Shown here in pieces: positions 1 through 51,462 of a stretch of 64,000 nt of DNA. The notes below the pieces were generated by a model. The model made no database searches, was not told the DNA's origin, and saw nothing but the letters and a program-made list of their open reading frames with translations. The position numbers and the translations under genes were made by a program. Positions within the stretch are counted from its first letter, which is position 1; every line of letters begins with the position of its first letter. The stretch spans positions 99,726 to 163,725 of the forward strand of contig CBINHN010000004.1 of the NCBI GenBank assembly GCA_966250485.1, written 5' to 3'. The DNA comes from an uncultured Sorangium sp. (GTDB lineage: Bacteria > Myxococcota_A > Polyangia > Polyangiales > Polyangiaceae).

Positions 1-900
1 CTCCTCCAGCAGCTCGTCCACCTGTCCGCTGTGTGACGCAACGTCCACCTTCACCAATCGGCAAAATATCCCCTCCTCCTCCAATCGTCCCTTCAGCTCC
101 TGTATCGCTTCACTCTCGCCCGATACCACCGTCGATCGCCGGCTGTTCGAGACTCCAATCGACACCGCTCCACCGTACTCCTTCAACCGCTCGCACAGCT
201 CCTCCGTCGTCTGCTCCACCACCGCCATGCTCCCTCGACCGCTCACTCGCTTCAGCAAGCGGCTCCTCACGCAGATCACTCGCGCACCATCCTCCAAACT
301 CAACTTCCCGCTCACCACTGCAGCCGCCACTTCCCCCATGCTGTGGCCAACTACACCTTCCGGCTCCACTCCATAGCTCCGCCAAACCTCCGTCAGGCTC
401 ACTCCCAGACCGAACAACACCGGCTGGATGACGTCGATACCCTCCCACTTCCCTCTCCTCAGCTCCTCACTCAGCGACCACTCCACGTACGGCCTAAACG
501 CCGCTTCACAACGCTCGATCGCCTCCCGAAATACTCCCTCTCTCTCGTACAACGTCCGCCCCATCCCGCCCCATTGCGACCCTTGTCCAGGGTACACGAA
601 CACCAACTTCCCGCTCTCCCCACTCTCCTCTCCTGCTCCTCCCTCTCGCCAACTCACTAGCTTCCCAAGCAGCTCCTCCCCCCTAAAGCCTACTACCGCC
701 TTCCGCTTCTCGTGCTGCGTCCGCCGTCGCGCCGACGTGTAACATACGTCCCTCACCTCTCGCTCGCTCAACCCTCCCCTCAACAGCTCCTCATAACACT
801 TCCCTAGCTCTCGCAGCGCTCCCTCGCTACGACCAGACATCAACAAGATCTGCGCTCTCCCTATCCGATCCTCTCCCTCAACACTCTCCTCAGGCGCCTC
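1..900. repeat. Copy A of a 900-bp or longer near-perfect direct repeat (KS-AT linker plus AT domain); partner 5529-6428
   Basis: The offset is 5528. Four pairs of track ORFs give identical translations (33..431 = 5561..5959; 110..448 = 5638..5976; 343..660 = 5871..6188; 428..742 = 5956..6270). By eye I found one mismatch (about 856 t vs 6384 a, Arg vs Ser). Identity stops at 900/6428. The left end is cut by the window edge. Confidence 0.93.
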
Positions 901-2283
901 TTCGACGACGACGTGGGCGTTGGTGCCGCTCAAGCCAAACGAGCTCAGGGCCGCCATCCGCGGCGCGTCGCCTGCCGGCCAAGGCACGAGCTCCGTCGGG
1001 AGGAAGAAGCGCGAGCCCTCCAGCGTGATGCGCGGATTCACCTGACGCAGATGTAGATTCGGCGGGATCGCTCCGTGGCGCAGCGCTAACAAGATCTTGA
1101 TGAGCCCAGCCATGCCAGCCGCCGACTCGAGGTGGCCAACGTTCGTCTTCACCGAGCCGAGCGCGCAGCGCGCAACGGCGTCGCTGCTACCGTAGACCTC
1201 CGAGAGCGCGGAGAACTCGATGGGATCGCCCAGCGGTGTGCCCGTGCCGTGTGTCTCGATGAACGATACGCGCGCTGGCGAAACGCCCGCGGCCGTGAGC
1301 GCCTGACGCAACACCGCCTGCTGCGCGAGCGCGTTCGGCGCCGTCAAACCGTTGGAGCGACCGTCCTGGTTCACGGCCGAGCCGCGGATCACGCCCCAGA
1401 TTGGATCTCCGTCCCGCTGCGCGTCCGAGAGACGCTTCAAAATGACGACGCCGCAGCCTTCGCCACGAACGAAGCCGTTCGCCTGCGCGTCGAAGCTCTT
1501 GCAGCGGCCGTCGGGCGCCAGCGCGTAGAGCTTGGAGATCACCAGGCTCGTCAGCGGGGAAATGATGGCGTTGGTACCCGCGGCGATCGCCAGCGTGCTC
1601 TCGCCGCGCCGCAAGCTCGCGCACGCGAGATGCAGCGCAACGAGCGACGAGGAACACACCGTGTCCACGACCATCGCGGGACCCTGCAGGTCCAACCAAT
1701 ACGCGATCCGCCCAGCCGCCAGGCTGTTGCTGTTGCCGGTGCAGGCGTACGCATCGGCGCTAGCCACGTCCGAGAACTGCAGCGCCGCGTAGTCTCCGTT
1801 GTAGATGCCGACGAACACCCCAACGGGCTTACCGGCGAGCTCGTACGGCCGCTGCCCCGCGTTCTCCAGGGCCTCCCAGGTAACCTCGAGCAGCAAGCGT
1901 TGTTGGGGATCCATCGCGCTCGCCTCGCGCGGTGAGATATTGAAAAAAGCCGCGTCGAAGCGATCGATGCCGTCGATGAATCCGCCCCAACGCGCGCTGG
2001 CGGCCACAGGATTGGCCGGATCGAGCCGGGCAAGGAGCTCCGGCTCCCAGCGCTCCTTCGGAGCTTCTCGAATGGCGTCGCGACCCTCCCGCAGCAGCTG
2101 CCAAAACGCGTCGGTATCCGGCGCCCCGGGAAAGCGGCAGCTCACGCCGACGACGGCGATCGGCTCGTTCCCGGCTTGCTCTAGGGCGCGCAGCTGTCCC
2201 TTCAGAGTTTGAATCGCGACAAGCGCGCGCTTGATGGGCGACAACTCGTCGTCGTGGGCGGGAGTGTTGGTCGGCGTTTCCAT
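1..2283 (-). CDS. Type I modular polyketide synthase, 5' part only (N-terminal docking helix, KS, KS-AT linker, start of AT); continues beyond the left edge
   Basis: Absent from the ORF track because it has no stop in the window. The ATG at 2283..2281 overlaps the TGA of the upstream PKS (TGATG). My reverse translation reads [61 protein letters not shown]. The KS active site is [15 protein letters not shown] (about nt 1640-1690). The frame appears open to nt 1 (761 codons). Nt 1-900 are in frame and near-identical to the linker plus AT of the next gene (5529-6428), including GHSMGE and VDVASHS. Confidence 0.9.
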
Positions 2284-5200
2284 CAGGCCAGCCCGTCCAC
2301 CGCCGCCAACTCGCGAAGCAGCAACGCCTCGGCGTCGGTCTCGGAGATGCCGCGCACGTCCACGCGCTCCGCCGCGCTCGAGGTAGGCGTGGCGATGGGC
2401 GCGCTGGGCTCAGCTTGGCGTGGCTCGAAATCCAGCTTGCCCAGCAGGTAGCTCGCCAGGTTGACGACGTTCGAGTAGCTCCACACGAGGATTGCGGGCA
2501 GGCTGAGGCCGAGCGAGCCCTCGAGGCGGTTTCGGATTTCGAGCCCCATCAGCGAATCCAGGCCGAGCGAGGAGAAGGGCGTCTTGCGGTCCAGGCGCGC
2601 GGCGTCGAGCCGCAACACCTCAGCGATTTGCCGGCGCAGATACGCTTCGAGCAGCGCCGGGCGTTGTTCGGGGTTCGCGGCTGCGAGCTGGCGCCGGAGC
2701 TCGCCGGCGCGCTCGCTGGACCGCGGCTTCGGCTTGCTCGCGTCCATGGCGCTCAGGAGCGGCGTGCGCGAAGCGCTCAAAAAGAATTCGCGCCACTGGC
2801 GCACATCGAGCGGCAGCACGGCGATCTGATGCTCGCTGCGACGAAGCAGGCGCCCGAAGACTTCGAGCGCCTGCGCGGGAGGCAGGCTTCGTACGCCCCG
2901 ATTGCCGAAGCGTTCGCCGGGTCCGCGGGTCGCGGCGCGGCCCACTTCGGACCACGGTCCCCAATTGACGCTCACGGCAGGCAAGCCAAGGTTACGGCGA
3001 TACGCCGCGAAAGAGTCGAGAAACGCGCTCGCAGCAGCGTAGTTGGCCTGCCCGGGCGAGCCGAGGACCGATACGGCAGACGAGAACAGCACGAAGAAGT
3101 CGAGCGGCAGCTCAGCCGTAAGCTCGTGCAGATTCCACGTGCCGCGCAGCTTGGCGCGGAACACGTGTTCGAAGCGGGCAGCGGTTTGCTGCAATAGAAT
3201 GCCGTCATCGAGCGACACCGCGGCGTGGACGACTCCGCGCAGCGGCGGCAAATCACGGGCGATTTCGGCGAGCGCGCCGCGGAGAGCTTCCGCGTCGCCG
3301 ACGTCGGCGCGCACGACGCGCACGCCGGGGATCTCCGCCAGCGCGGCGCGCGCCGCTGGCGACGGTTCGCCGCGTCCGAGCAGCACGAGGTGCTGTGCAC
3401 CGTTCTCATTCATCCAGCGCGCGAGCGTGAGCCCGAGGCCGCCGAGCCCACCGGTGATGAGGTACGTCGCGTCGGCGCGGAACGAGGCTCGCGGCGTCTG
3501 GCGGTCGCTGACCGGCGCGGGTACGAGGCGCGCTACCCATCGCCTCGAGCCGCGCAGCGCGACTTGGTCCTCCTCCGTGGCAGCCGAGAGTTCCGCGAAC
3601 AGCGCGGCGCGCTCCTGCTCGTCGGGGACGCGGCTCGTGTCGACACGCGTCACCTGGAATTCGGGGTGCTCGTGCAGCAGAGAGCGACAGAATCCCCAGA
3701 GCGGAGCGGACTCGATGGCGGGCGGCTCCGCGGCGTTCAGCGCTTGCGCACCGCACGTTACTACGATGAGGCGCGGTGGGTTTCGCAGCGCGAGTCGCGT
3801 CAGCGCTTGGACCAGGAACAGCAACGCGAGCACGCCTCGAGATTGGGCCCGCTCGACCGCTTCGAGCGTCAGCGACTCGGCGTTGCGCGCGCCCCACGCA
3901 AACACGATTGTGCTGCACGGCGCGTGTTGATCGGCAAAGACGCGCGCCAGGCACTCACCGTACTGCCGAGGATCTTCGGGATCGATGGTGAAGTGAGCGG
4001 GGTCTAGGATTTGGAAGCGGGATCCAGGGCTGACGATGCACGGCGCTGGACCGGCGCTGCCGAGCTCTTCGGCGAGCGCTGGAGCGAGCAGGTCGTCGGC
4101 GAAGAGCAGCCAGCGCCCGGGGCTCGGCGCGCTCGCCGCGCGAGGCCTCGGTCGCTCTTGCCACTCGAAGCGGTAAAGCCAGCTATCCAGCTCGTCACGC
4201 ACTCCGGGCAACGTACCGGCGCTCAGCCGCTTCAACGCCAGCCCTTGCACCTCCGCCATCACCTCGCCGGCGTCGTCCAGCAGTCGTACCGTCCCTTGCA
4301 CCACCTCGCCTTCGCTCACCGCCATTCGCACGTGCGCCCAGCACGACCCTCCTGCCGCCCGCGCAGCAATCACCTTCTCCACTTGCGCCGGCAGGCGCAG
4401 CTCGCCGCTGCTCTCCTGCTCCAGCGCCGCTCCTATTACTTGAAAGCTTGCGTCCAGAAGCGCTGGGTGCAGCACGTAGCGCTCCGCTGCGCCGGCCGCC
4501 TCCGGCAGCTGCACCCGGCCGAGCGCCTCGCGCTCTCCTCGATACAGCTCCTGCAGCCCGCGAAAGCTCACGCCGTACTCCAACCCCTGCTGCGACAGCC
4601 GCTCGTAATACTCTTCGACGTCCAGCGCCTCGGCGCAGCGCGCTCGCACCGCCGATAGCGGCTCGGCGCTCTCAGGCTGCGCCGCGCTCAGCTTCAGCTC
4701 GCCCTTCGCGTGCACGCTCCAGCTTCGCGCTTCACCCGCCTCTCGGCTCGCGACGCTGAAGCTCCCAGCGCTCTCGCTACGCCGCGTCACCACCACTTGC
4801 ACGCGCCGCCGCTCTCCTTCTTTCAGCACCAGCGCTTGCTCGAAGCTCACCTCGGCCAGCTCCACTGCTTCGCCGAATACTTCCCGTCCTGCCGCCAAAC
4901 CCAGCTCCAGGTACCCCGCTCCGGGCACCACCACCATGCCCTGCACTCGGTGATCCGAAAGGTACCTCACGCTCCCCGCGCTCAGCTCCCGCTCGAAAAA
5001 ACACGTCCCTTCCAGCGATGACTCCAGCTTCCCTCCCAATAACGGGTGCCCGCTCGCTGCTACGCCTGCTCCGCCCGCCGACTCCCAAGGCTTGCTCTCC
5101 GTCTCTACCCAGTACCGCTCGCGCTGAAACGGGTACCGCGGCAGCTCCACCACTCGCCCGCCACCGTAAACTCTCTCCCACTTTATCTCTCGCCCGGCTT

Positions 5201-7805
5201 CATACAGCGCTCCCAGACCCTCCAAAATCGTACTCTCCTCCTCCGCTTCTCGTCTCATCGACGCGACCACCACTGCTTTGCCACCTCGTTCCCTGATCAC
5301 CTCCTCGATCGCTCCCTGCAATATCGGGTGCCCGCTCACCTCCACGTAGCTCCCATATCCACCTTCCCACAGCCGCTCCACCGTCTGACCGAACATCACA
5401 GGCTCTCGAAGGTTTCTCACCCAGTACTTCCCTCCCAGCTCCTCTCCTCTCAACTCCCTCCCTTCTACCGTCGAGTAAAACGGCACCTGACCCGCTCTCC
5501 CTTCCACCCCCTTCAGCTCCGCTGCCAGCTCCTCCAGCAGCTCGTCCACCTGTCCGCTGTGTGACGCAACGTCCACCTTCACCAATCGGCAAAATATCCC
5601 CTCCTCCTCCAATCGTCCCTTCAGCTCCTGTATCGCTTCACTCTCGCCCGATACCACCGTCGATCGCCGGCTGTTCGAGACTCCAATCGACACCGCTCCA
5701 CCGTACTCCTTCAACCGCTCGCACAGCTCCTCCGTCGTCTGCTCCACCACCGCCATGCTCCCTCGACCGCTCACTCGCTTCAGCAAGCGGCTCCTCACGC
5801 AGATCACTCGCGCACCATCCTCCAAACTCAACTTCCCGCTCACCACTGCAGCCGCCACTTCCCCCATGCTGTGGCCAACTACACCTTCCGGCTCCACTCC
5901 ATAGCTCCGCCAAACCTCCGTCAGGCTCACTCCCAGACCGAACAACACCGGCTGGATGACGTCGATACCCTCCCACTTCCCTCTCCTCAGCTCCTCACTC
6001 AGCGACCACTCCACGTACGGCCTAAACGCCGCTTCACAACGCTCGATCGCCTCCCGAAATACTCCCTCTCTCTCGTACAACGTCCGCCCCATCCCGCCCC
6101 ATTGCGACCCTTGTCCAGGGTACACGAACACCAACTTCCCGCTCTCCCCACTCTCCTCTCCTGCTCCTCCCTCTCGCCAACTCACTAGCTTCCCAAGCAG
6201 CTCCTCCCCCCTAAAGCCTACTACCGCCTTCCGCTTCTCGTGCTGCGTCCGCCGTCGCGCCGACGTGTAACATACGTCCCTCACCTCTCGCTCGCTCAAC
6301 CCTCCCCTCAACAGCTCCTCATAACACTTCCCTAGCTCTCGCAGCGCTCCCTCGCTACGACCAGACATCAACAAGATCTGCGCACTCCCTATCCGATCCT
6401 CTCCCTCAACACTCTCCTCAGGCGCCTCCTGCAGGATCGCGTGGCCATTCGTCCCGCCCATCCCGAACGAGCTCACCGCCGCCAGCAAGGGTTGATCGCG
6501 AGGCTGCCAGTCTTCTGCGCTCGTCGGGATCGAGAACGGGACGCCACCTAGGCTGATATTGGGGTTGAGCTCGCGAAAATGCAGGTGGGGCGGGATCACA
6601 CGGTGGCGCAGCGCGAGCGCGACCTTCATCACGCCCGCGATGCCCGCTGCGGCCTCCAGGTGACCGACGTTCGTCTTCACCGAACCGAGCGCGCAGCGCT
6701 GCTCCGGGGTACGGCCGCGACCGTACTGATCGACCAGCGCCTCGACCTCGATGGGATCGCCCAACGAGGTGCCCGTGCCATGAGCTTCGATGTACGAGAT
6801 CTGCGACGGCGCGACGTGCGCGCGCTCGATCGCCTGCCGTATCACGGCCTTCTGCGCCAAGACATTGGGCGCGGACAGGCCGTTGGAGCGGCCGTCTTGG
6901 TTGACGGCCGAGCCGCGGATCACCGCCCAGATTGGATCGCCGTCCCGCCGCGCGTCCGACAGCCGCTTCAAAACGACGACGCCGCAGCCCTCACTCCGGA
7001 CGTATCCGTCCGCCCGCGCGTCGAAGGTCTTGCAGCGCCCGTCGGGCGCCATCAGGCGTGATTTGCAGACCGCGACCATCGGCTGCGGCATTAGAATGAC
7101 GTTCACGCCGCCGGCCAGCGCTGCGTCGCACTCGCCCGCGCGCAAACTCTGACAGGCGAGGTGCAACGCGACCATCGACGACGAGCACGCGGTGTCCACG
7201 GCGAGGCTCGGGCCGCGTAGATCGAGCAGGTAAGAGAGCCGGTTCGCCACGATGCTGAACGCGCTGCCGGCGGTGGCGTAGACGTCGATTTTTTCGAGAT
7301 CTCCCAGCTGAAACCAAGCGTAGTCGCTGGTGCAGATGCCGACGAACACACCCGTGCGGCTGCCCGCCAGTCGCTCCGGCGGAAGCCCAGCGTTCTCGAG
7401 CGCGTGCCAGCTGACCTCGAGCAGCAAGCGTTGTTGCGGATCCATCGCGCTGGCCTCGCGCGGCGACACGCCGAAGAACGTCGCGTCGAAACGATCGATG
7501 TGATCCAAGAAGCCGCCCCAACGCGTGTACGTCTTGCCGGGCGCTTCGGGGTCCGGATCGAAGAGCGCCGCGGAATCCCAACGATCGCGCGGGATCTCGC
7601 CGATCGCGTCACGTCCGTCGCGGAGTGCCGCCCAGAACTCCTCTGGACCGTTGATGTTGCCGGGAAAGCGGCAGCCCATCCCGACGATAGCGATCGGCTC
7701 GGACTGCTGCCGCCTCAGCGCTTCGAGCTGGCTGTTGAGATCGAGAGCGAGCAACGCGACCCGCTTGGGCGGCAGCTTCGTTACCTGTTCGAGAAATGAT
7801 TCCAT
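2283..7805 (-). CDS. Type I PKS, one module: KS-AT-DH-KR-ACP
   Basis: Track ORF 2283..7940. I trimmed the start to the ATG at 7805 ([30 protein letters not shown]), because the upstream PKS ORF ends at 7813. Motifs: [27 protein letters not shown]; AT GHSMGE plus VDVASHS; [35 protein letters not shown]; [23 protein letters not shown]; [13 protein letters not shown]. Approximate nt spans: KS 6426-7697, AT 5166-6131, DH 4206-5051, KR 2946-3473, ACP 2436-2678. Confidence 0.95.
5529..6428. repeat. Copy B of the near-perfect linker plus AT repeat; partner 1-900
   Basis: Evidence as for copy A. The boundary at 6428 is the first base of the codon for Glu505 in [14 protein letters not shown], the last residues of the KS. 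Confidence 0.93.
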
Positions 7806-14487: not shown

Positions 14488-14530
14488 GGTTGGGCTCGCT
14501 TTATCGTCACCGCTTCGGCGAAGCGCATCA

Positions 14531-17500
14531 TCACGTGCCGCGCGCGAGACGCGCGATCTCTTCGTCGACGGCCGCGCCGAGCTCTTGCTCGGAGAGCCGT
14601 GTAATCTCGGCGAGCGAGATGCCTGACACCACCGCTGGCGCCGAGGCCGGCGCCGAGGTCGATGTCGGGCCATCGCACGCGAGCTGGTTCAGCAGGTAAT
14701 CGCTGACCTCCTCGATGCTCGGATAATTGAACAGCAACGCCGGTGGCAAGGCGCGCCCGACGCCGCGCGCGAGCGCCTTCGAGAGGCTCAGCGCCATCAA
14801 CGAGTCGAGGCCGAAGTTGCGCAGCGGCACACGCGGATCGAGCTGCCCTGCTTCGGCATGACCGAGCACCAGCGCGGACTGCTCTTGCACGAAGCGCCGC
14901 ACGATATCGCGACGCTCGGCGCCGCGCGCACTCTGCAAACGATCGAGCAAGAGCGATGACTCGTCTGCGGCTTCGCTGAGACGGGCGCGCGGCCACTCGC
15001 CGTGCAGGATCGCGACCTCAGGGCTCGGCTGCTCGGGGTCGAGAGCACCCGCGAGCGCGGCGAGCGCACTGTCTTTCTGCATCGCGCGCAGGCCGAGCGC
15101 CGAGAGCCGCTCGCCGTCGCGGGCGCTCAAGCGGGCGGTCATCCCGAGCTGCGCGAACGGGCCAAAATTCACGGACAACGCCGGCAAGCCGCGGGCTCGC
15201 CGTACGAACGCAAAGGCGTCGAGGAACGCGTTGGCTGCTGCGTAGTTGCTCTGCCCAACCGAGCCCAGGACGGACGCTATGGACGAGCACATGACGAAGA
15301 AATCGAGCGCTAGGCCCTCACTCTCCGCGTGCAGCCAGCGAGCGCCGAGGGCCTTCGCCGCAAATACCCGCTCGAACCGCTGCATCGTTTGCTGCGCGAT
15401 GACGCCGTCGTCGAGCGCGCCGGCGGCGTGCACGATGCCGCGCAGCGGCGGCAACTTCGACTTGAGGCTGAGCATCAGCGCGGCGACCTGGTCGCGCTGC
15501 GCGACATCAACGCTGAACGTCGAGATTTCTGCGCCGAGCGCGGACAACGCGCGGAGCTGCTCGCGTACCGCCGGGGAGGGCTCACTGCGCTGCACGAGCG
15601 CGATGTGCCGCGCACCTCGCTCCGCCAGCCAGCGCGCCAGCGCGATGCCCACGCCACCAAGGCCGCCCGTGATCAGATAGCCGCCATCGGCACGGATCAG
15701 AGCGCGTACCTCGGGCGCTTCCGCTTGGACGCGCTGCCACGTGAGCGACAGGCATTGGCCGCCGCGCAAGGCGAGCTCGCTCTGCGGCTGGCCGGCGAGC
15801 AGCACGCGCGCCAAGCGCGCCGCATCCACCGGCGAGCGGGGATCCAGGTCAATCAGGCCGCCCCACGAGTTCGGATATTCGAGCGCCGCGCTGCGCGCGA
15901 AGCCCCACAGCGGAGCCTGGGCCAACAGGCCAGCAGCGTCGCCGACGTCGCCCACCTCGAGCGCTTGTCCGCCTCGCGTTACGACCCAGAAGCGCGCGTC
16001 CGGCAACAGCTCGCTCGCGCAGCGAAACTGCGTCAGCAGCGTGGCAAGCTGCTGCCTGGCTCCGTCCTCCTCGTCCGTCGCATCCTCCGGCTCCGCTAGA
16101 TGAACGACGCCGCGCCAGGCTGCGGAGCGCGCCGCCGCCGTGGCTTCGCGCAGCCCCTCGCGCGCTTCGACTTCGTCGCTCGCGCTCAGCAACCAGGCGC
16201 GCTGGCCGCTAGCTTCCAGCGCCTGTACGAGGCTCCGGCCGAAGCCCGTAGCGCGAGCGCAGATCAACCAAGCGCCCGGCGCTGCAGCGGGTAGGCGTGG
16301 CTCTGCCGCGGGGCGCCAAACGGGTACGTAGCGCTGCGCCGCGCGCTCGACCGTCGCGAGCGTGCGCCGCACGCATAGGCCCTCCATGGCGATGACGAGC
16401 TCCCCCGCTTCGTCGCAGAGCTCGACGTCCCCGGTGAAGACCTCGCCAGCCTCGGCCGCGGAGGAGGACCGCAGCCGCGCACGGCACGTTCGCGGCGTGC
16501 CGCGGCCCGGATAAAAGCAAAAGCGCTCGATCCCGAGCGGCACGTACAGCGAATCCGCTTTCGCGAAGCGCTCCCATGCCACTCCGAACAGCTGAAAACA
16601 AGCATCGATGAGACCCGGGTGCAGCACGTAGCTTTCGGCGACGTCTCGCGCGCGTGGCGCGCGCACGACGCCAAGGGCCTCGCAGTCGCCTCGCGTCACT
16701 GAAGCGAGCCATTGAAAGCTCGGACCGAGCTCGTAGCCGCGCTCGCGCATGTCGGCGTAGAAGCTGTCGCCGCTCAGCGGCTGCGGCGCGTCGCCGCTCT
16801 GCGTCGAAAGCTGCCCCGCGGGAGCACGCGCCTCCGCCCGCTCGGCACGCGTCGCCTCCATGTGCGCGTACCACGGTGTATCGGCGTCGCTCGTCAGCGG
16901 CTGGCTGGCGATGAGCACCGTCGGTTCCTCGGCGACGCGGCGTTCTAGCGTTTGAACGACGTAAGCGTCCGTCCCCGTCAAGATCAGCGGCTCGCGAAAC
17001 ACGATATTTAGCAGCGCGCTCTGCTCACGCCCCGTGGCGCGCGCGGCGAGCAGCCACATCGCCAGGTACCCTGCGGCGGGGAAGATCACCTGGCCGCGCA
17101 GGACGTGCTCACGGATGGGTTCACTGCCGGCGCTGAGCTCCGATTCGAAGATGCAGTCTCCCGCTGCCGAACGTCGGCGTTCACCGAGCAGCGCGTGCTG
17201 GCGCTCCTTGGCGGGCGGTGTGCGCGCGGCTATCACCCGCGAGGTCCTGCGCCGCAGGCTCGTGCCCTGAAACGGATACGCCGGCAAGCTCACACGTCGG
17301 CGCTGACGTTCCGCGTCGATGCGGCTCCAATCGAGCTCTGCGCCGCGAACGAAGAGCGCGCCCAGGCTTTGAAACAGCTGACGGCAGTCGCTGTGCCCGC
17401 GCCGCAGCGACGGCAACCAATCCAGCCCTGCGCTGCCGAGCGCCCGTTGACCCAGGCTCGTCAGCACCGGCTGCGGACCGAGCTCGATGAATGCGTTGCA

Positions 17501-19945
17501 GCCCAGCTCCTTCAGCGTCGCCAGCCCCGCTCCGAATCGCACCGTCTCCCGAGCCTGCCGCCGCCAGTACTTCCCGTCCGGCGCGTCTCCCTTCACGCGA
17601 CCGCTCACGTTCGAGACCAGCGCCAGCCGCGGCGCCCGCGACTCCACCCCACCACACGCTCGCTCGAACTCGTCCAGTATCTCGTCCAGCGCCGCCGAAT
17701 GGAACGCATGCGACGTCTTCACCTTCCGCGTCTTCAAACCTCGCTCCGCGCAGCGCTCACCAAGCAGCCCGAGCGCAGCCTCCGGTCCCGAGTACACCCA
17801 CTCCCCTCCCCCGTTCTCCGCTGCCACGCTCAGCCCCCATTCCTCCACGCACAGCTCCCTCACTTCCTCCTCTTCCCCGAACACCGCCAGCATCCCGCCG
17901 CCGCTCTTCGCTCGCTGCATCAGCCTCCCTCGCTCACTCACCAGCCGCATCGCCGCTTCCGGCTCCAAGCACCCAGCAACCGTCGCCGCAACGTATTCAC
18001 CCACGCTGTGCCCGAGCACCGCCGCCGGCTCTACTCCCCACGACTGCCATAACTTGCTCAGCGCGTACCCGATCGCGAACAACGCCGGCTGCGCGTGCTC
18101 CGTACGCTCTAGCTCCTCCTCTCCTCCTTCGCCGTTCATCACTCGCCACAGCGCTCCACCGTCTCCTAGCTCCCCCAAGCACCGCTCCAGCTCCCGACGA
18201 AAAACTCCCTCCGCTTCGTACAGCTCACGCCCCATCCTCACGTACTGCGATCCCTGTCCCGTGCACAAAAATCCGACCTTCAGCGCGTCACACCCGCTGG
18301 GCGGGGAATGCTCCGGCTGCGCGGCGCTCGCGCGCTCCAGCGCCGCCCGAGCTTCCCGCTCGGAGCTCGCGACGATGGCCAGCCGCGTCGGGAACGCGGT
18401 CCTCGTGGTGTTGGAGGTGAAACAAACGTCGGCAAGTGAGCTCTCTGGGTGCTCCGCGAGGTACTTCGCGTAGCGCTGAGCGAGCGCGCTCAGCGTCCGC
18501 GGGTTGCGCGCGGAGAGCAGCAGCAACGAAGCGGAACGATCCGCGCTGGCGGGCGCCGCAGCCTCCACGGCGGGGGCCTGCTCCACGATGACGTGCGCGT
18601 TCGTACCGCCGAACCCGAACGAGCTCACGGCGGCGCAGCGCCGGGAGCCTGCTGGCCATTGCGCAGCTTCGAGCGGAACGAAGAAACGGCAACCATCCAG
18701 CGCGAGGCTCGGGTTGAGTCGCTGAAAATGTAGATGCGGGAAGATCCTCGCGTGCTCCACGGAAAGGACGGCTTTGAGCAGCCCCGCAATACCCGCAGCG
18801 CCCTCCAGGTGACCGAAGTTCGTCTTCACCGAGCCGAGCGCACAAGGCAGCGACCCCCGACCGTAGACCTCGCGCAACGCGTCGACCTCGATGGGATCGC
18901 CGAGCACCGTGCCCGTGCCGTGCGCCTCGATGTACGCCACCTGGTCTGCGTCGAGACCGGCGTTCTCGAGCGCGCCGCGGATCAGCGCCACTTGCGCCAA
19001 AAGGTTCGGAGCCGTCAAGCCATTGGAGCGGCCATCCTGGTTCACGGCGGAGCCGCGGATCACCGCATGGATGATGTCGCGATCACGCAGCGCGTCCGCG
19101 AGCCGCTTGAGCACGACGACCCCGCAGCCCTCGCCGCGAACATAGCCGTCGGCGCGCGCGTCGAACGTCTTGCAGCGCCCGTCGGCAGCCATCATGCGAG
19201 CCTTGGAAAGCGCGATGTTGCCCTCGGGCTCCAGCACCACGTTGACGCCCGCGGCGATGGCGAGATCGACCTCCCCGCTGCGCAGGCTCTGGCAAGCGAG
19301 GTGCACGGCGACGAGCGAGGAGGAACACGCCGTATCCACCGTCAGACTCGGACCACGCAGGTCGAGCAGATACGAAAAGCGGTTCGCGATGATGCTGTGT
19401 GCCGCGCCCGAGCTCGAGTACGCCTCGATGCTGGTCGGGTCCTGGAACTCGGTCACGGTGTGGTCGTTCGCGCAAGCGCCGACGAACACGCCGCTGGAGC
19501 TCCCCGCAAGGCTGGACGGCAATATGGCCGCGTCTTCCAGCGCTGACCAGGCGGTCTCCAGCAGCAACCGTTGCTGCGGGTCCATGCGCTGCGCCTCGCG
19601 CGGCGCGATGCCGAAGAACTCCGCGTCGAAGCGATAGGGATCGGCGAGCAGCGCCGCGTGACGGCTGTACATCTTGCCCGGGGCGTCAGGGTCGGCATCG
19701 TAGTAGGCGCCGAGATCCCAACGCGCCTCGGGGATCAACGAGACCGCGTCGCGGCCCTCGGAGAGCAGATGCAAGAAGCCGTCGAGACCATCGGCCTCGC
19801 CGGGAAAGCGACACGCCGCGCCGACGATCGCGATCGGCTCACGGCCGAGCCACTCCACGCCCTCGATGCGCGAGCGCAGCTGCTTGATCATCAGCGCGAC
19901 GCGGACGGGCGACAGGTTCGTGGGTCGATCCATCTCTCCAGCCAT
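14531..19945 (-). CDS. Type I PKS, one module: KS-AT(malonyl-type)-DH-KR-ACP
   Basis: Track ORF, ATG at 19945 (MAGEMDRPTNLSPVRVALMIKQLRSRIEG), 10 nt after the upstream stop. Motifs: [27 protein letters not shown]; AT GHSVGE plus KTSHAFHS; DH HALLGER, REHVLRGQVIFPAAGY, YELGPSF, HPGLIDACFQ; [16 protein letters not shown]; ACP FGLDSLMALS. Approximate nt spans: KS 18575-19840, AT 17327-18286, DH 16361-17197, KR 15146-15688, ACP 14681-14908. Confidence 0.95.
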   Translation of the reverse strand: MAGEMDRPTNLSPVRVALMIKQLRSRIEGVEWLGREPIAIVGAACRFPGEADGLDGFLHLLSEGRDAVSLIPEARWDLGAYYDADPDAPGKMYSRHAALLADPYRFDAEFFGIAPREAQRMDPQQRLLLETAWSALEDAAILPSSLAGSSSGVFVGACANDHTVTEFQDPTSIEAYSSSGAAHSIIANRFSYLLDLRGPSLTVDTACSSSLVAVHLACQSLRSGEVDLAIAAGVNVVLEPEGNIALSKARMMAADGRCKTFDARADGYVRGEGCGVVVLKRLADALRDRDIIHAVIRGSAVNQDGRSNGLTAPNLLAQVALIRGALENAGLDADQVAYIEAHGTGTVLGDPIEVDALREVYGRGSLPCALGSVKTNFGHLEGAAGIAGLLKAVLSVEHARIFPHLHFQRLNPSLALDGCRFFVPLEAAQWPAGSRRCAAVSSFGFGGTNAHVIVEQAPAVEAAAPASADRSASLLLLSARNPRTLSALAQRYAKYLAEHPESSLADVCFTSNTTRTAFPTRLAIVASSEREARAALERASAAQPEHSPPSGCDALKVGFLCTGQGSQYVRMGRELYEAEGVFRRELERCLGELGDGGALWRVMNGEGGEEELERTEHAQPALFAIGYALSKLWQSWGVEPAAVLGHSVGEYVAATVAGCLEPEAAMRLVSERGRLMQRAKSGGGMLAVFGEEEEVRELCVEEWGLSVAAENGGGEWVYSGPEAALGLLGERCAERGLKTRKVKTSHAFHSAALDEILDEFERACGGVESRAPRLALVSNVSGRVKGDAPDGKYWRRQARETVRFGAGLATLKELGCNAFIELGPQPVLTSLGQRALGSAGLDWLPSLRRGHSDCRQLFQSLGALFVRGAELDWSRIDAERQRRRVSLPAYPFQGTSLRRRTSRVIAARTPPAKERQHALLGERRRSAAGDCIFESELSAGSEPIREHVLRGQVIFPAAGYLAMWLLAARATGREQSALLNIVFREPLILTGTDAYVVQTLERRVAEEPTVLIASQPLTSDADTPWYAHMEATRAERAEARAPAGQLSTQSGDAPQPLSGDSFYADMRERGYELGPSFQWLASVTRGDCEALGVVRAPRARDVAESYVLHPGLIDACFQLFGVAWERFAKADSLYVPLGIERFCFYPGRGTPRTCRARLRSSSAAEAGEVFTGDVELCDEAGELVIAMEGLCVRRTLATVERAAQRYVPVWRPAAEPRLPAAAPGAWLICARATGFGRSLVQALEASGQRAWLLSASDEVEAREGLREATAAARSAAWRGVVHLAEPEDATDEEDGARQQLATLLTQFRCASELLPDARFWVVTRGGQALEVGDVGDAAGLLAQAPLWGFARSAALEYPNSWGGLIDLDPRSPVDAARLARVLLAGQPQSELALRGGQCLSLTWQRVQAEAPEVRALIRADGGYLITGGLGGVGIALARWLAERGARHIALVQRSEPSPAVREQLRALSALGAEISTFSVDVAQRDQVAALMLSLKSKLPPLRGIVHAAGALDDGVIAQQTMQRFERVFAAKALGARWLHAESEGLALDFFVMCSSIASVLGSVGQSNYAAANAFLDAFAFVRRARGLPALSVNFGPFAQLGMTARLSARDGERLSALGLRAMQKDSALAALAGALDPEQPSPEVAILHGEWPRARLSEAADESSLLLDRLQSARGAERRDIVRRFVQEQSALVLGHAEAGQLDPRVPLRNFGLDSLMALSLSKALARGVGRALPPALLFNYPSIEEVSDYLLNQLACDGPTSTSAPASAPAVVSGISLAEITRLSEQELGAAVDEEIARLARGT
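17327..18286. repeat. Copy A of a 960-bp perfect direct repeat (exactly one malonyl-type AT domain, 320 codons); partner 35034-35993
   Basis: The offset is 17707. The two PKS proteins are identical from ALKVGFLCTGQGSQ to FVRGAELDW and unrelated immediately outside. Shadow ORFs agree (17997..18182 = 35704..35889; most of 17491..18420 = 35198..36007). I saw no mismatch by eye. Confidence 0.93.
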
Positions 19946-19955
19946 GAGCTTCCCG

Positions 19956-32128: not shown

Positions 32129-32129
32129 T

Positions 32130-35100
32130 TCAAGAGGTCTCCAGCAGCGCGTCGATGGACGCGAGCTTCTGGTCGAGCAGGGCTTCGAGCTCACCTTGAG
32201 ATAGGTCAGAGATATCGGACGGCAGCGGCTCGGGAGGCGACTCCGGTTCCGCGGGCGCGGGCGCTCGCGCCGGACTCGACTCGGTATCCAAAATTTTGAT
32301 CAGGTAGTCCTGCAGTCCTGCTAGCGACGGGTAATCGAAGAGCAACGAAGCGGGCAGCGAGCGGCCGAGCAGCGCGCCGAGGGCGTTCCTGAGCTCCACC
32401 GCCATGAGCGAATCCAGCCCGAGCTCGCCCAGCGGCTGCCGTGGGTCGATCGGCGCCGAGGGCGCGAGACCAATCACGCGGGCGGCCTGCTCGCGCAATT
32501 GCTCACCGAGCAGCTCGCGCCGCTCGCGGGCGGAGGCGGCCCGCCAACGCTCGAGGAACTCTGCCGATCGCGTCGCAGGGTTCGCTGTCGGACGCTCGTC
32601 TGCGAGTGCGAAAAGCAGGGACCGCGCCGTGGGGGATGACGACGCCATGCGATTCCAATCGACGCGCGCCACCACGGCGTGGCCGCCGTCGCCCCAGAGC
32701 AGCGCTTCGAGCTCGAGCAGCGCCTCACGCGGTTCCAGCTCCGAAATGCCGCGCTCGTCTCGAAACCGCCGCGCACGTTCACCGCCGTTAGCCGCCATAC
32801 CGGTCGCGCGCCACGGCCCGAAGGCGACGCACAGCGCGGGCAGGCCGCGCGCCCGCCGCGCGTGCGTCACAGCCTCCAGCGCAGCATTCGCCGCAGCGTA
32901 GCCCGCTTGCGCAGGCGCGCCGATGATCGCGGATAGCGAGGAGAAGGAGACGAAATAATCGAGCGGCACGTCGCGCGTATGGCAATCGAGCAGCACGGCG
33001 CCGACGAGCTTCGGGCGAACGACGGCGTTCAAGCGCTCCGCGCTCTGCTGCAACAGCACACCGTCGTCGAGCACGCCCGCGGCGTGGAACACTCCGCGCA
33101 GGTTGCCATCACGCTTCAGGCTCTCCAGGAGCGGCAGCAGGCGGCCTTCGTCGCTCACGTCGATGGCTTCGACGCGCACGTTCACGCCGAGCTCCGCGAG
33201 GCCGGCGAGCTCTGCCTTCGCCGCTTCATTCGCGCGTCGTCCGATCAAGCAAAGCCGGCGCGCGCCGCGCTCCACCAAAAATCGAGCAAGGTTCGAGCCT
33301 ACGCCGCCGAGCCCTCCCGTAATCAGATACGTCGCGCTCGGATCCAGCGCGAGGGTGCCGCTCGCGCGAACCGGCTGGGCGCGTCGCAGGCGCAGTGTGT
33401 GGCGCGCGCCGTTGCGCAGCGAGACTTCGCTCGACGCCTGGCCCTCGACGAGGCTGTCGAGCAGTAGCTTCGAGCCTACCCGGTCGAGCGTCATATCGAG
33501 ATCCACGCTGCTGACGAACAGCTCCGGGTGCTCGACCCCGAGCCCGCGAGCAAGGCCCCAGAGCGCGGCCGGGCCCGGGCTCGGCTGCTCCTCGGCGCTC
33601 ACCGCCTGAGCAGAACGCGTGACGAGCCAAAGCCGGGGCGTCGGGCCGCCGGAGTAACGGGCCAGCGCCTGACCGCACGCCAGCAGTTCGGCGAGACCGG
33701 GTTCTTCGTAGTCGCCGCGTTCTTCGCGTCCGACTGCGGCGTTCTCCAACGCCGACGCGTGAAGGTACAGAACACGCTCGATCGGTGCGCTGGCGCTGCT
33801 CTCTTCCAGCACGCGCAAGATGTCGTCGGCCTGGGCGCGGGTGCGGTACTGGCCCGGCCCAAGCGCCGCGAAACTACTCCCAAGTGTTACCAGGATTGCA
33901 CGGCCTGCGCGTGCCTCGAGCTCCGCAACCAACGCGTTCGCGGGAGCTCGGCAGAGCACGAGCGTCGTACCCCAGCTCGGCCGCGTGCTGGTGGCGCTCG
34001 CCTCGGGCTCCCAATGAAGCTCGTGGCGCAGGCCGCCGTGCACGACAGAGCGCGTCTGCAGGGTCTCACGGTTCACGCGCTGGAAGCGAACGCCACTCAG
34101 CTCGGCGGCGAGCAGCCCGTCACCATCGACGAGCTCGGCATCACCCGAGAAGCCGGCGCCCGAGGCGGGCGAGCCGGCTTGCACGCGAGCGTGCGCCCGG
34201 TAGGGGCCGGCGGCGCCGCGGCGAAACCAGAAGCGCTCAATGGCAAGGGGCACGCGTATATCGACCGCGCCCTCATCCATGAAGTCTGGGTTCGCGGCTG
34301 CGCTCAAGGCCTGCAGGCAGGCTTCGCAAAGCCCGGGCAGCAGCTCCTCCGCGCTAGGCCGGAAGTCTCGCGCCGGGGCCAGCTCGACGCCGCTCTGCCC
34401 ATCCGCGATGTGCAGGCGATCGATCCATTGGAAGCGCGGACCGAACTCGACCTCACTCTGTCGCAATCGACCATAGAATTCAGCGCGAGTGATGGTGCGC
34501 TGCGCTCCACTCGACGCGAAGCTCGGGCCCGCGCGACCGACCCCGGACACATGTCGGGCAGAGCACGTGGCGTGAACCGTGAAGCTTGGCTCTTCGGGAG
34601 CGCGGCTGGCCACACGGATCGCGGCGCCGCCGCCCGCTGCTACGGACACGACCGTTTGCACCACGCGCTCCTCGTCGTCCGCGAGCGTCAATGGTCGCAG
34701 GAACGTGATGTCGATCAACTCAGCGGCGTTCCCTGGAAACACGCCCTCGGCCGCCGCCAGCATGAGCGCCAAGTAGCCGACCGCGGGCATGGTGATCCGC
34801 CCGAAGTAGCGGTGATCCGCGAGCAGCTCGAGCTCGTCGCCCCGATAGCGCGCTTCGTAAACCGTCTCCTCGAGCGCCAGGTCGAGCCGCGTCCCGAGCA
34901 GGCGCTGGCCCGCTGATGGCGTCGCGGCCTGGTGCTCACGGCGAGCAACGGGCTCCAAGAAATGGCGGGTGCGCTCGAAGGGATAGCTCGGCAATGAGCT
35001 TCGCCGCCGGCCGTTGCCGCCCGAAACCGCGCGCCAATCGAGCTCTGCGCCGCGAACGAAGAGCGCGCCCAGGCTTTGAAACAGCTGACGGCAGTCGCTG

Positions 35101-37607: not shown

Positions 37608-38399
37608 TCATGTGCCGAGCGCGGGCGCGCTGGTGACTTCCAGGCCAGCGAAGGCAACGTCGTCGAGCAGGGCGCGCACGACCGGACGAGGGCGCTCCAA
37701 CGCAAAGAAATGGCCGCCGGCGAAGGAGCGCAACGAGCTCGCTTCGCGCGCTTCCTGCTGCCACGGCAGTACCAGATCGAGCGGCGCCTCTTCGTCCTCC
37801 TGTCCGCGGAAGATGGATAGCGGCACATCGAGCGGCGGACGCCGAACGTACTCGTACGTTTCGATCACTTTGAAGTCAGCGCGCAGCACGCCTATGAACA
37901 GCGCGCGCAGCTCGGGGTCATCGAGCAACACGCTGGGAGTGCCGCCGAAGCGGCGAATCCTGGCCTCGACTTGCTCGTCCGGTAAGAGGTGCAACACGCG
38001 GCCGCCGACACCAGTGGAGGGTGCTCGACGGCCCGAGACGACCAACCGCAGCGGCGGGCGCTGTCCCTCGCCGCGGATGCGGTGAGCGAGCTCGAACGCG
38101 AGCAGCGCGCCGAAGCTGTGGCCGAACAGCACATAAGGCGTCTCGAGCAGCGGCGCGATGTTCGTGTACACGGCTTCGACGAGCGGCATCATGGACTCGA
38201 TGGCGGGCTCGTTCAGACGCTCGCCGCGCCCCGGCAACTGCAACGCGCAAGCGTCCACCCCTGCGGGTAGGTGCTCGGCCCAGGATCGGAACGAGGTGGC
38301 GCTCCCCCCAGCGTGCGGAAGTAAGAATAGGCGAAGCTTGGCGTCGTTCTCCGGCCGCAACCGGAAGAGCCACTTCTTCGCCACCGTCGAGCTCATCAT
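37608..38399 (-). CDS. Type II (discrete, editing-type) thioesterase, alpha/beta hydrolase
   Basis: Track ORF 37608..38813. I trimmed the start to the ATG at 38399 (MMSSTVAKKWLFRLRPENDAKLRLFLLPHAGGSATSFRSW), which overlaps the TGA of the upstream PKS-NRPS (ATGA). The product is 263 aa. Motifs: PHAGG, nucleophile elbow GHSFG, C-terminal GGHFF. The longer N-terminal extension in the track lies inside the upstream gene. Confidence 0.88.
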   Translation of the reverse strand: MMSSTVAKKWLFRLRPENDAKLRLFLLPHAGGSATSFRSWAEHLPAGVDACALQLPGRGERLNEPAIESMMPLVEAVYTNIAPLLETPYVLFGHSFGALLAFELAHRIRGEGQRPPLRLVVSGRRAPSTGVGGRVLHLLPDEQVEARIRRFGGTPSVLLDDPELRALFIGVLRADFKVIETYEYVRRPPLDVPLSIFRGQEDEEAPLDLVLPWQQEAREASSLRSFAGGHFFALERPRPVVRALLDDVAFAGLEVTSAPALGT

Positions 38400-45450: not shown

Positions 45451-46071
45451 TCAGTAGTTGCTCGCGCTGCGCGCGACGCTGGCCTTGGCCTCAGCGGCCA
45501 GGTTCAAGAAGTTGCGCGCGATGAGCTTGCCCGACGGGGTACCGATGGACTCTGGGTGAAACTGCACGCCGAACATCGGCCAGTGCCGGTGACGGAAGGC
45601 CATGATGGTGCCGTCCCAAGTCTTCGCTGTAACCTCGAGCTCCGACGGGAGGCTCCCCGGATCCGCGATCAAGGAGTGATAGCGCATCGCCTCGAAGGCG
45701 CGCGGGACGTCCGCGAACAGCGGGTGACCATCGTGAAAGACGTAGCTCGTCTTGCCGTGCATGGTCTCCGCGGCTCGCACCACCTTGCCGCCCAGGACGT
45801 GCGCGATGCCTTGGTGACCCAAGCACACGCCCAAGATGGGAGTCGTGGCGCCCAGGAAGCGGATTACGTCGGCGCAGACGCCGAAGTAAGCCGCGTCGTC
45901 GGGGCGGCCCGGGCCCGGCGAAATGACGATGAAATCCGGATCGAGCTGGCGCACGCGCTCGAGTGAAATCGCGTCGTTGCGTACCACCGCGGGCGCGGCC
46001 GACAGGCTGCCGAACAGCTGATAGAGGTTGTGCGTGAAGGAGTCGTAGTTGTCGAGGATGAGACCGCTCAT
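45451..46071 (-). CDS. pabA: Glutamine amidotransferase, aminodeoxychorismate/anthranilate synthase component II (PabA-type)
   Basis: Track ORF 45451..46374. I trimmed the start to the ATG at 46071 (MSGLILDNYDSFTHNLYQL), which overlaps the pabB stop (ATGA). The product is 206 aa. Motifs: class-I GATase GVCLGHQ (nucleophile Cys) and FHPES. The stop lies 11 nt before the PKS-NRPS start. Confidence 0.88.
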   Translation of the reverse strand: MSGLILDNYDSFTHNLYQLFGSLSAAPAVVRNDAISLERVRQLDPDFIVISPGPGRPDDAAYFGVCADVIRFLGATTPILGVCLGHQGIAHVLGGKVVRAAETMHGKTSYVFHDGHPLFADVPRAFEAMRYHSLIADPGSLPSELEVTAKTWDGTIMAFRHRHWPMFGVQFHPESIGTPSGKLIARNFLNLAAEAKASVARSASNY

Positions 46072-47627: not shown

Positions 47628-47631
47628 AGCC

Positions 47632-49059: not shown

Positions 49060-49081
49060 AACTCCGATCCTAAATTTCCAC

Positions 49082-51461: not shown

Positions 51462-51462
51462 C

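What the first reader, a model, noticed from the sequence alone, without database searches (positions are those of the whole stretch)
5529..6428. A second near-perfect repeat (at least 900 bp, one mismatch) copies the KS-AT linker plus AT between adjacent PKS genes, with its junction at the end of the KS
Seen in sequence: nt 1-900 equal 5529-6428 except for one base (about 856/6384, changing Arg to Ser). Identity begins at the codon for the first Glu of EAPEESVEG, immediately after the KS C-terminus (GTNAHVVVE vs GTNGHAILQ). It continues through GHSMGE and VDVASHS to the window edge, so its true length is unknown. Inference: this is an exchange event independent of the 960-bp repeat. It uses a different junction (KS end rather than AT start) and a different AT type. 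Two separate recent AT homogenisations in one cluster suggest active concerted evolution of this assembly line.
Basis: seen in the sequence. Interest (0 to 1): 0.65.

Follow-up and report, generated by a model that had tools for sequence, protein, structure and literature searches.

The report
G-skewed AT-DH cassette shared by two PKS modules
Two neighbouring modules of a myxobacterial polyketide synthase carry an almost identical 2.45-kb stretch of unusually G-rich DNA encoding their acyltransferase and dehydratase domains; this is a clear but ordinary case of the gene-conversion repeats (GRINS-type) already known in such enzymes.

Summary
Window 1-900 equals 5529-6428 except for one base (856/6384, Arg/Ser).

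All the genes are on the minus strand. Four further assemblies of the same population extend the sequence past the window edge. They show the repeat is 2,450 bp, with two paralogous mismatches.

The repeat starts at the first codon after the KS domain. It runs through the KS-AT linker, AT, post-AT linker and DH, and ends about 45 residues into the structural KR subdomain. The flanking KS, KR and ACP DNA is only 46-70% identical. It is therefore a cassette, not a module duplication.

Coding-strand GC skew jumps from about 0.03 to about 0.4-0.55 exactly at the 5' repeat boundary. The skew is strongest at synonymous sites. The unrelated 963-bp AT repeat in the same cluster shows the same pattern.

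This matches GRINS (Nivina 2021) on length, identity and GC skew. It does not reach the TA-skew threshold.

The best explanation is concerted evolution by gene conversion of a G-skewed cassette in an uncultured Polyangiaceae PKS-NRPS.

One caveat remains. The assemblies look like short-read graphs, so exact identity in the repeat interior cannot be verified.

The parts
3979..6428 (-). Cassette A, copy in module M6 (gene 2283-7805). It is 2,450 bp and encodes the KS-AT linker, AT, post-AT linker, DH and the first ~45 aa of the psiKR.
   Evidence: Near-identical to the M7 copy, with mismatches only at offsets 45 and 2415. Domain limits come from Pfam and the boundary alignment.
1..900 (-). Cassette A, copy in module M7. 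This is the first 900 bp in gene sense; the remaining 1,550 bp lie beyond the left edge of the window (L001 16906-19355).
   Evidence: The M7 gene is a 3,325-aa bimodule, KS-AT-DH-KR-ACP-KS-AT-KR-ACP.
4178..6420 (-). G-skewed block inside cassette A (M6 copy). Coding-strand GC skew is +0.3 to +0.55 and GC content 0.59-0.65.
   Evidence: The likelihood change points sit 8 nt inside the 5' repeat boundary and ~200 nt before the 3' boundary. The segment mean skew is 0.374 against 0.034 +/- 0.022 for other 2,450-nt PKS segments, z = 15.7.
6384..6384 (-). Paralogous mismatch 1 (offset 45; partner at window 856). AGT Ser in M6 versus AGA Arg in M7.
   Evidence: In assembly L047 the M7 copy carries the M6 base, so the mismatch is absent there.
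4014..4014 (-). Paralogous mismatch 2 (offset 2415). Phe in M6 versus Leu in M7; the partner base lies outside the window.
6429..7700 (-). KS domain of M6, the diverged 5' flank. It ends in GTNGHAILQ.
   Evidence: Pfam. KS plus N-terminal docking region (1,371 aligned nt) is 66.5% identical to the M7 counterpart, the longest exact run is 23 nt, and the last 100 nt are 60% identical.
901..2283 (-). Docking region and KS domain of M7, the diverged 5' flank. It ends in GTNAHVVVE.
2283..3978 (-). Remainder of M6 (psiKR, KR, ACP, C-terminal docking), the diverged 3' flank.
   Evidence: 61% identical to the M7 counterpart overall, and 46-51% in the first 200 nt after the cassette. Domains from Pfam.
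5220..6131 (-). AT domain within cassette A, with GQGSQ, GHSMGE and VASH motifs.
4212..5048 (-). DH domain within cassette A, with an HxxxGxxxxP motif ([10 protein letters not shown]).
17324..18286 (-). Cassette B copy in M4 (AT domain only, HAFH type). This is the second G-skewed repeat family of the cluster.
35031..35993 (-). Cassette B copy in M1.

Best explanation
The repeat is one copy of a 2,450-bp cassette: KS-AT linker, AT, post-AT linker, DH and the start of the psiKR. It is present in two consecutive modules, M6 and M7, which lie in adjacent co-directional genes of a cis-AT PKS-NRPS assembly line from an uncultured Polyangiaceae (Myxococcota).

The two copies are kept essentially identical by intrachromosomal, non-reciprocal homologous recombination, that is gene conversion or concerted evolution. 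The surrounding KS, KR and ACP DNA has diverged to about 50-70%.

The cassette is also a block of intense G-over-C skew on the coding strand. The skew is imposed mainly at synonymous sites and shifts the amino-acid composition. The cluster's other repeat, cassette B, shows the same thing. This combination of repeat and skew is the GRINS phenomenon of Nivina et al. 2021, here in a purine-rich, GC-skew-only form.

The functional consequence is inferred. M6 and M7 would select the same (VASH-type, probably methylmalonyl) extender and apply the same dehydratase. The 2.45-kb direct repeats, 5,528 bp apart and in the same codon phase, are also a ready substrate for in-frame loss or gain of a module.

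Shown: the repeat, its boundaries, the diverged flanks, the skew and its codon-position pattern, and recurrence in five assemblies. Inferred: gene conversion as the process, its being ongoing, and any causal link between skew and recombination.
For: The repeat is 2,450 bp with two mismatches in L001, L048 and L049, and one in L047. The window part has one mismatch in 900.

The boundaries are sharp. Identity is 100% inside the tract, and 60% and 46% in the first 100 nt outside it. No exact run longer than 23 nt occurs in the flanks. All other paralogous domain pairs are 36-70% identical. Both differences between copies are nonsynonymous and there are no synonymous differences. Protein-level selection therefore cannot explain the identity.

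Skew: mean |GC skew| in 150/30-nt windows is 0.41 for cassette A and 0.38 for B, against a background of 0.067. Segment-level z scores are 15.7 and 9.9. Skew change points lie within 9 nt of the 5' repeat boundary in all four copies.

GC skew is +0.46 at codon position 3, against -0.07 in the rest of the gene. At four-fold sites C falls from 0.41 to 0.13 (A) and 0.11 (B), while G rises from 0.43 to 0.58 and 0.65. Gly, Glu, Lys and Val are enriched; Pro, Thr, His, Ala and Asp are depleted.

The GRINS definition and properties were read in PMC8256042. A 100%-identical conversion tract starting at GTNAH is documented in the cinnamomycin PKS (PMC12391348).

Catalytic motifs are intact in both copies and the ORFs are uninterrupted. 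Both cassette starts sit at codon phase 0: offset 1377 in M6 and 1383 in M7.

Taxon: the PDH E1 protein in the window is 75-82% identical to Polyangiaceae MAG proteins.
Against: The strict published GRINS criterion also asks for mean |TA skew| > 0.15. Here it is 0.118 for A and 0.092 for B, no higher than the background of 0.131. GC and TA skews are not positively correlated (r = -0.2 and -0.6).

No orthologous cluster was found in the genome or metagenome collections; the best relatives are <= 59% identical. Donor, recipient and non-reciprocity therefore could not be demonstrated.

The flanks are too diverged to have served as homology for installing the cassette. The first transfer is unexplained.

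All three paralogous mismatches in the two repeat families lie <= 45 nt from a repeat end. Every interior SNP between assemblies (offsets 219 and 2037) appears in both copies at once. Ongoing conversion would produce that pattern, but so would a short-read assembler traversing one collapsed graph edge twice. 'Near-perfect' is therefore an upper bound on the true identity.
Confidence: 0.78

Rival explanations
1. This is plain recent domain-cassette replacement or gene conversion with no special element. The G-skew is merely the composition of whatever donor DNA was copied, for example a horizontally acquired AT-DH segment, and has nothing to do with the repeat's behaviour.
For: GC content of the cassette is lower than the rest of the cluster (0.59-0.65 versus ~0.69). 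The cassette protein has no close relative anywhere: <= 47% identity over the whole cassette and 48-57% over the AT alone. The Planctomycetota locus L033 shows that a 2.8-kb, 98.7%-identical PKS repeat can exist without skew.
Against: Two unrelated cassettes in the same cluster, with different AT clades and no DNA similarity, carry the same C-depleted synonymous-site signature. In both, the skew starts within 9 nt of the 5' repeat boundary. No single-copy PKS segment reaches even a quarter of the skew: the maximum is 0.089 for 2,450-nt segments. Acidobacteriota loci L020 and L025 show the same pairing of repeat and G-skew.
Confidence: 0.13
2. This is an assembly artefact. The two copies are really more different, or one copy does not exist, and a de Bruijn-graph assembler collapsed or duplicated the region.
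For: The contig names and coverages are SPAdes-style short-read metagenome assemblies at 7-13x. Mismatches occur only within ~45 nt of the repeat ends, the part that k-mers can phase. Interior inter-assembly SNPs always occur in both copies.
Against: The same structure, with all four junctions (KS6|cassette, cassette|psiKR6, KS7|cassette, cassette|psiKR7) and intact reading frames, is recovered in five assemblies from different samples. Copies differing by more than ~1-2% could not share k-mers over 2.4 kb and would assemble separately. If hidden differences were resolved at random per assembly, most would show up as inter-assembly 'SNPs in both copies'. Only two such sites are seen, which bounds the true identity at about >= 99.8% (inference).
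Confidence: 0.06
3. This is a whole-module (or whole-gene) tandem duplication, after which the KS, KR and ACP diverged.
For: M6 and M7 are adjacent and have the same domain order, KS-AT-DH-KR-ACP. Their KS, KR and ACP are marginally the most similar pair in the cluster: 68, 65 and 70%.
Against: A single duplication cannot give 99.9% identity, with zero synonymous changes, over 2,450 bp next to 46-70% identity in the same module, with step-like boundaries.
Confidence: 0.03

Closest known systems
[quoted passage not shown]
   Same: A repeat longer than 500 bp and more than 80% identical within one cis-AT PKS(-NRPS). It covers AT and reductive-loop domains. The nucleotide skew is confined to the repeat, strongest at third codon positions, and shifts amino-acid use (Gly and Val up; Pro, Thr and His down). 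Two independent repeat families occur in one cluster, each with its own AT specificity.
   Different: Only G-over-C is skewed. TA skew stays at background (0.09-0.12, below 0.15) and is not positively correlated with GC skew. The skew has one sign throughout instead of switching abruptly. The synonymous-site change is loss of C with gain of G and A and no gain of T, which the transition/tautomer model proposed for GRINS does not predict. The host is a myxobacterium, whereas GRINS are reported as rare in (then) proteobacterial PKSs. Copy identity (~99.9%) is above the 75-95% typical of the published examples.
Identical AT gene-conversion tracts in Streptomyces PKSs, e.g. cinnamomycin cmm modules 2/6/7 (PMC12391348); recombination and gene conversion among S. 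avermitilis PKS domains (Jenke-Kodama et al. 2006, PMC1592344)
   Same: 100% DNA identity between non-orthologous modules, starting at the KS C-terminus (GTNAH). It is interpreted as gene conversion that homogenises extender-unit choice.
   Different: The cinnamomycin tract ends in the post-AT linker, as cassette B does here. Cassette A continues through the whole DH and ~45 residues into the psiKR.
Recombination between repeated PKS module segments giving module loss or gain (rapamycin/tylosin 'accelerated evolution', Wlodek et al. 2017, as cited in PMC8256042 Discussion)
   Same: Long direct repeats in the same codon phase in successive modules. These are the substrate for in-frame module deletion or expansion.
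   Different: No deletion or expansion variant was seen in any of the five assemblies. This outcome is potential only, not observed.

Membership tests
GRINS (operational definition of PMC8256042) | Duplicated region longer than 500 bp | tested here: met
   2,450 bp; 900 bp of it lies inside the window copy at 1-900.
GRINS (operational definition of PMC8256042) | More than 80% DNA identity to another region of the same PKS | tested here: met
   2,448 of 2,450 bases identical. Short-read collapse of the interior cannot be excluded, but that itself requires about >= 98-99% identity.
GRINS (operational definition of PMC8256042) | Mean absolute GC skew > 0.15 (150-nt windows, 30-nt step) | tested here: met
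   0.41 for cassette A and 0.38 for cassette B; background 0.067.
GRINS (operational definition of PMC8256042) | Mean absolute TA skew > 0.15 (same windows) | tested here: not met
   0.118 (A) and 0.092 (B) against a background of 0.131. The published pipeline, if it requires both thresholds, would not flag these repeats.
GRINS (descriptive properties) | GC and TA skews strongly correlated (typically positive, r ~0.7; anticorrelation also reported) | tested here: not met
   r = -0.20 (A) and -0.63 (B). The sign of TA skew flips weakly to A>T, so the strand is purine-rich (0.64 purine).
GRINS (descriptive properties) | Skew most marked at third codon positions, with GGN/GTN amino acids enriched and CCN/ACN/CAY depleted | tested here: met
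   GC skew at codon positions 1/2/3 is +0.36/+0.27/+0.46, against +0.12/-0.10/-0.07 outside. Ratios to other modules: Gly 1.74, Val 1.32, Pro 0.54, Thr 0.60, His 0.43.
PKS gene-conversion tract | Identity at synonymous sites with step-like boundaries against diverged paralogous flanks | tested here: met
PKS gene-conversion tract | Non-reciprocal transfer shown by comparison with orthologous clusters (paralogues group together, orthologues do not) | not testable with these tools
   No orthologous cluster was found. The best relatives are <= 59% identical in genome contigs and metagenome contigs. Only near-identical strains are available.
Whole-module duplication | Similar level of identity across KS, AT, DH, KR and ACP of the two modules | tested here: not met
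   KS 68%, cassette 99-100%, psiKR 50%, KR 65%, ACP 70%.
Assembly artefact (collapsed or duplicated repeat) | Structure not reproducible in independent assemblies, or copies that cannot be told apart at all | tested here: inconclusive
   The structure is reproduced in five assemblies, and the copies are distinguishable at offsets 45 and 2415. Interior identity cannot be verified without reads.

The most novel reading that the evidence does not exclude
The two cassettes here, together with the similar 860-bp AT repeats in Acidobacteriota loci L020 and L025, may represent a mechanistically distinct, purine-rich class of PKS repeat. Its features would be skew in G over C only, depletion of C at synonymous sites without gain of T, a skew that starts exactly at the 5' repeat boundary, and a ~180-200-bp unskewed 3' tail. 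The published two-threshold GRINS criterion would miss such repeats, which could help explain why GRINS look rare outside Actinobacteria. The polarity and the 5'-to-3' decline of skew would then point to a directional, recombination- or transcription-coupled (R-loop or G-run) mutational process, rather than the tautomer/transition model.
Probability: 0.25. Interest if true: 0.6.

Novelty: new member of a known kind. Interest (0 to 1): 0.35.

Why it matters
For this cluster, modules M6 and M7 should install two chemically equivalent units, with the same extender and the same dehydration. The assembly line also carries a built-in 2.45-kb recombination substrate for losing or gaining a module. 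The natural exchange unit runs from directly after GTNAH to ~45 residues into the psiKR, which is a ready-made boundary for AT-DH swaps in myxobacterial PKS engineering.

More generally, this is a clean example of the repeat-plus-skew association outside Streptomyces. It shows only G/C skew and a synonymous-site signature that the proposed GRINS mechanism does not predict. That may help constrain how these elements arise.

It is not a new kind of system. Gene conversion of AT cassettes and GRINS are both already described.

Tried and rejected
1. A look-up of the 1,885-aa ORF starting at ATG 7940 found nothing. The annotated start is ATG 7805, giving 1,840 aa.

2. I searched for orthologous clusters to identify donor and recipient. 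Both genome contigs and metagenome contigs returned only distant PKSs (<= 59% identity), so no comparative test of non-reciprocity was possible.

3. I tried to fetch sequence downstream of the M7-M8 gene to look for a third cassette copy. Further copies beyond L001 position 25,523 are not excluded.

4. A homology search with the cassette protein found nothing closer than 47% identity. In-cluster ATs are no closer: M3 53%, M2 49%. The cassette's origin, in situ or foreign, stays open.

5. The two cassette families are not related to each other; no blastn hit was found between them.

6. Whole-module duplication is rejected.

7. Protein-level purifying selection as the cause of identity is rejected, because synonymous sites are identical and the only two differences are nonsynonymous.

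8. Canonical G-quadruplex motifs: 5 occur on the coding strand of the 53-kb PKS span and 4 of these lie in the four cassette copies, with none on the template strand. This follows almost automatically from the G-richness, so I treat it as a hint only.

9. All KS domains carry the Cys/His/His triad, so no inactive modules complicate the picture.
Full report
**Observation.** Window 1-900 and 5529-6428 are identical except at 856 (T) versus 6384 (A). The repeat finder lists the same pair. Identity ends abruptly to the right of 900/6428.

All the large genes are on the minus strand. In gene sense the repeat therefore starts at 6428/900 and runs towards lower coordinates. Translation shows the shared text begins with EAPEESVEG, directly after the KS C-termini GTNGHAILQ (gene 2283-7805, here M6) and GTNAHVVVE (the gene that begins at 2283 and runs off the left edge, here M7). 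The single mismatch gives Ser in M6 and Arg in M7.

**Context.** Pfam scans show a cis-AT PKS-NRPS assembly line built mostly from one-module proteins:
- M0: KS-AT-DH-ACP-C-A-PCP (38396-45439)
- M1: KS-AT-DH-KR-ACP (32130-37592)
- M2: KS-AT-DH-KR-ACP (26576-32194)
- M3: KS-AT-DH-ER-KR-ACP (19956-26579)
- M4: KS-AT-DH-KR-ACP (14531-19945)
- M5: KS-AT-DH-ER-KR-ACP (7813-14673)
- M6: KS-AT-DH-KR-ACP (2283-7805; the recorded start is ATG 7805)
- M7-M8: a 3,325-aa bimodule

Upstream genes look like aminodeoxychorismate synthase and lyase plus an AMP-ligase. The pyruvate dehydrogenase E1 encoded in the window is 75-82% identical to proteins from Polyangiaceae MAGs. The host is therefore an uncultured myxobacterium.

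**True extent.** An exact-protein look-up of M6 returned locus L001 from an ENA metagenome assembly. Cluster members then led to L047, L048 and L049 from three further samples.

These loci are collinear with the window and differ by only 6-14 SNPs per 17.8-25.5 kb. They are independent assemblies of one population. In all of them the repeat continues past the window edge to 2,450 bp. Paralogous mismatches occur only at offsets 45 and 2415, and L047 lacks the first.

In protein terms the tract covers residues 460-1276 of M6: KS-AT linker, AT, post-AT linker, the whole DH, and about 45 residues of the structural KR subdomain.

A codon-aligned comparison of all nine modules shows 99-100% identity for M6/M7 over exactly these segments. 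Every other domain pair gives 36-70%. The sole exception is the AT of M1/M4, which is the 963-bp repeat.

Just outside the tract, identity falls to 60% upstream and 46% downstream within 100 nt. The longest exact run in either flank is 23 nt. Both differences between the copies are nonsynonymous and all synonymous sites are identical, so protein-level selection is also ruled out.

On the coding strand, GC skew rises from about 0.03 to +0.4 to +0.55 inside the repeat, and GC content falls from about 0.69 to about 0.60.

I used the windowing of the GRINS paper (150 nt, step 30). Mean |GC skew| is 0.41 for this cassette and 0.38 for the 963-bp cassette, against 0.067 for the rest of the PKS DNA. 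As whole segments they lie 15.7 and 9.9 standard deviations above all other segments of equal length. No single-copy segment comes close.

A likelihood change-point analysis places the onset of skew within 9 nt of the 5' repeat boundary in all four copies. The end of skew falls about 200 nt (cassette A) and about 177 nt (cassette B) before the 3' boundary.

The skew is strongest at third codon positions: +0.46 against -0.07. At four-fold degenerate sites:

| Base | Background | Cassette A | Cassette B |
|---|---|---|---|
| C | 0.41 | 0.13 | 0.11 |
| G | 0.43 | 0.58 | 0.65 |
| A | 0.07 | 0.19 | 0.14 |
| T | about 0.10 | about 0.10 | about 0.10 |

(All values.)

Amino-acid use shifts accordingly. 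Gly, Glu, Lys and Val rise; Pro, Thr, His, Ala and Asp fall. Catalytic motifs remain intact.

**Comparison with what is known.** Nivina et al. 2021 (PMC8256042) define GRINS by three criteria:
- a region longer than 500 bp;
- more than 80% identity to another region of the same PKS;
- mean absolute GC and TA skews above 0.15.

They report third-position enrichment, the same Gly/Val versus Pro/Thr/His shift, preferential location in AT and reductive-loop domains, several independent families per cluster, and rarity in proteobacterial PKSs (also PMC10394414).

The present repeats meet the length, identity and GC-skew criteria and the codon and amino-acid properties. Their TA skew (0.12 and 0.09) is no higher than background (0.13). 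It is not positively correlated with GC skew. I therefore file them as GRINS-like in behaviour, and as failing one operational criterion.

The junction directly after GTNAH is also documented. The cinnamomycin PKS has 100%-identical conversion tracts from the KS C-terminus to the post-AT linker (PMC12391348). Cassette A differs by also carrying the DH.

Among about 60 unrelated PKS loci fetched in passing, two Acidobacteriota loci have 860-bp AT repeats (97% identical) with the same purine-rich skew. One Planctomycetota locus has a 2.8-kb repeat without skew.

**Mechanism.** The best-supported reading is concerted evolution by intrachromosomal gene conversion of a skewed cassette shared by two consecutive modules.

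The flanks are too diverged to provide homology, so two things follow. The cassette limits probably mark where homology ends. How the cassette was first installed is unknown.

One phaseable site hints that conversion is still active. In L047 the M7 copy carries the M6 base at offset 45.

The C-depletion signature, with no gain of T, does not fit the C>T/A>G tautomer model suggested for GRINS. The 5'-anchored, declining skew profile is also unexplained.

G-runs are about twice as frequent as in the rest of the PKS DNA (29-34 versus 13.6 GGG runs per kb). Four of the five canonical G-quadruplex motifs in the PKS span lie in the cassettes. This is largely a by-product of composition.

**Caveat on 'near-perfect'.** The contigs have SPAdes-style names and 7-13x coverage. 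Three observations fit a collapsed repeat edge being traversed twice:
- All paralogous mismatches lie within 45 nt of a repeat end.
- The interior 2,369 nt are identical in every assembly.
- Interior inter-assembly SNPs (offsets 219 and 2037) always appear in both copies.

Ongoing conversion would produce the same pattern. Collapse itself requires very high identity. The small number of such variable sites across five assemblies suggests at most a handful of hidden differences (inference). The existence of two copies is secure: all four junctions and both reading frames recur in every assembly.

**Verdict.** I extend it in two ways: the cassette is a 2.45-kb linker-AT-DH unit, and it shows a GRINS-type G-skew. 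It is a new example of a known kind of element, in an under-sampled lineage and with an atypical skew signature. Interest is modest.

Noticed in passing
window 17324-18286 and 35031-35993 (minus strand; AT domains of M4 and M1): The cluster's other repeat is 963 bp with one mismatch, 3 nt from an end. It is a malonyl-type (HAFH) AT only, unrelated in DNA to cassette A. It shows the same coding-strand G-skew (mean 0.38), the same C-depleted four-fold sites, a skew onset at the 5' boundary, and a ~177-nt unskewed 3' tail.
   Followed up: partly
window 45451-50266 (minus strand): Directly upstream of the first PKS gene lie a class-I glutamine amidotransferase, a chorismate-binding enzyme, an AMP-binding ligase and a class-IV aminotransferase. 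This is a PabA/PabB/PabC-like set plus an activating enzyme, which suggests a p-aminobenzoate-type starter unit (functional reading is inference).
   Followed up: no
window 50175-52539 (plus strand): An acyl-CoA dehydrogenase and a weak HAD-like hydrolase hit sit side by side. This resembles the FkbI/FkbH pair used to make hydroxy- or methoxymalonyl-ACP extender units (resemblance recalled from knowledge, not tested).
   Followed up: no
L020 7706-8563 / 12140-12997 and L025 7748-8608 / 12174-13034 (Acidobacteriota MAG contigs): These are 860-bp HAFH-type AT repeats, 97% identical within each locus, with GC skew +0.27 and TA skew about -0.1. In L020, four-fold sites are G 0.61 and T 0.03 inside the repeat, against 0.32 and 0.19 outside. 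This is the same purine-rich repeat type in another phylum.
   Followed up: partly
L033 9554-12328 / 17432-20204 (Planctomycetota MAG contig): A 2.8-kb PKS repeat at 98.7% identity with no nucleotide skew (|GC| 0.10). Long near-identical PKS repeats therefore do not have to be skewed.
   Followed up: no
L047 position 16950 (= offset 45 of the M7 cassette copy; window 856 equivalent): In this one assembly the M7 copy carries the M6 base, which removes the Arg/Ser difference. The site is close enough to unique flank to be phased. It may be a real population polymorphism in the extent of the conversion tract.
   Followed up: partly
window 559-582 and 6087-6110 (minus strand); also inside both cassette B copies: One canonical G-quadruplex motif (four G3+ runs, loops <= 7) lies in each cassette copy. 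That accounts for 4 of the 5 such motifs on the coding strand of the 53-kb PKS span; there are none on the template strand.
   Followed up: no
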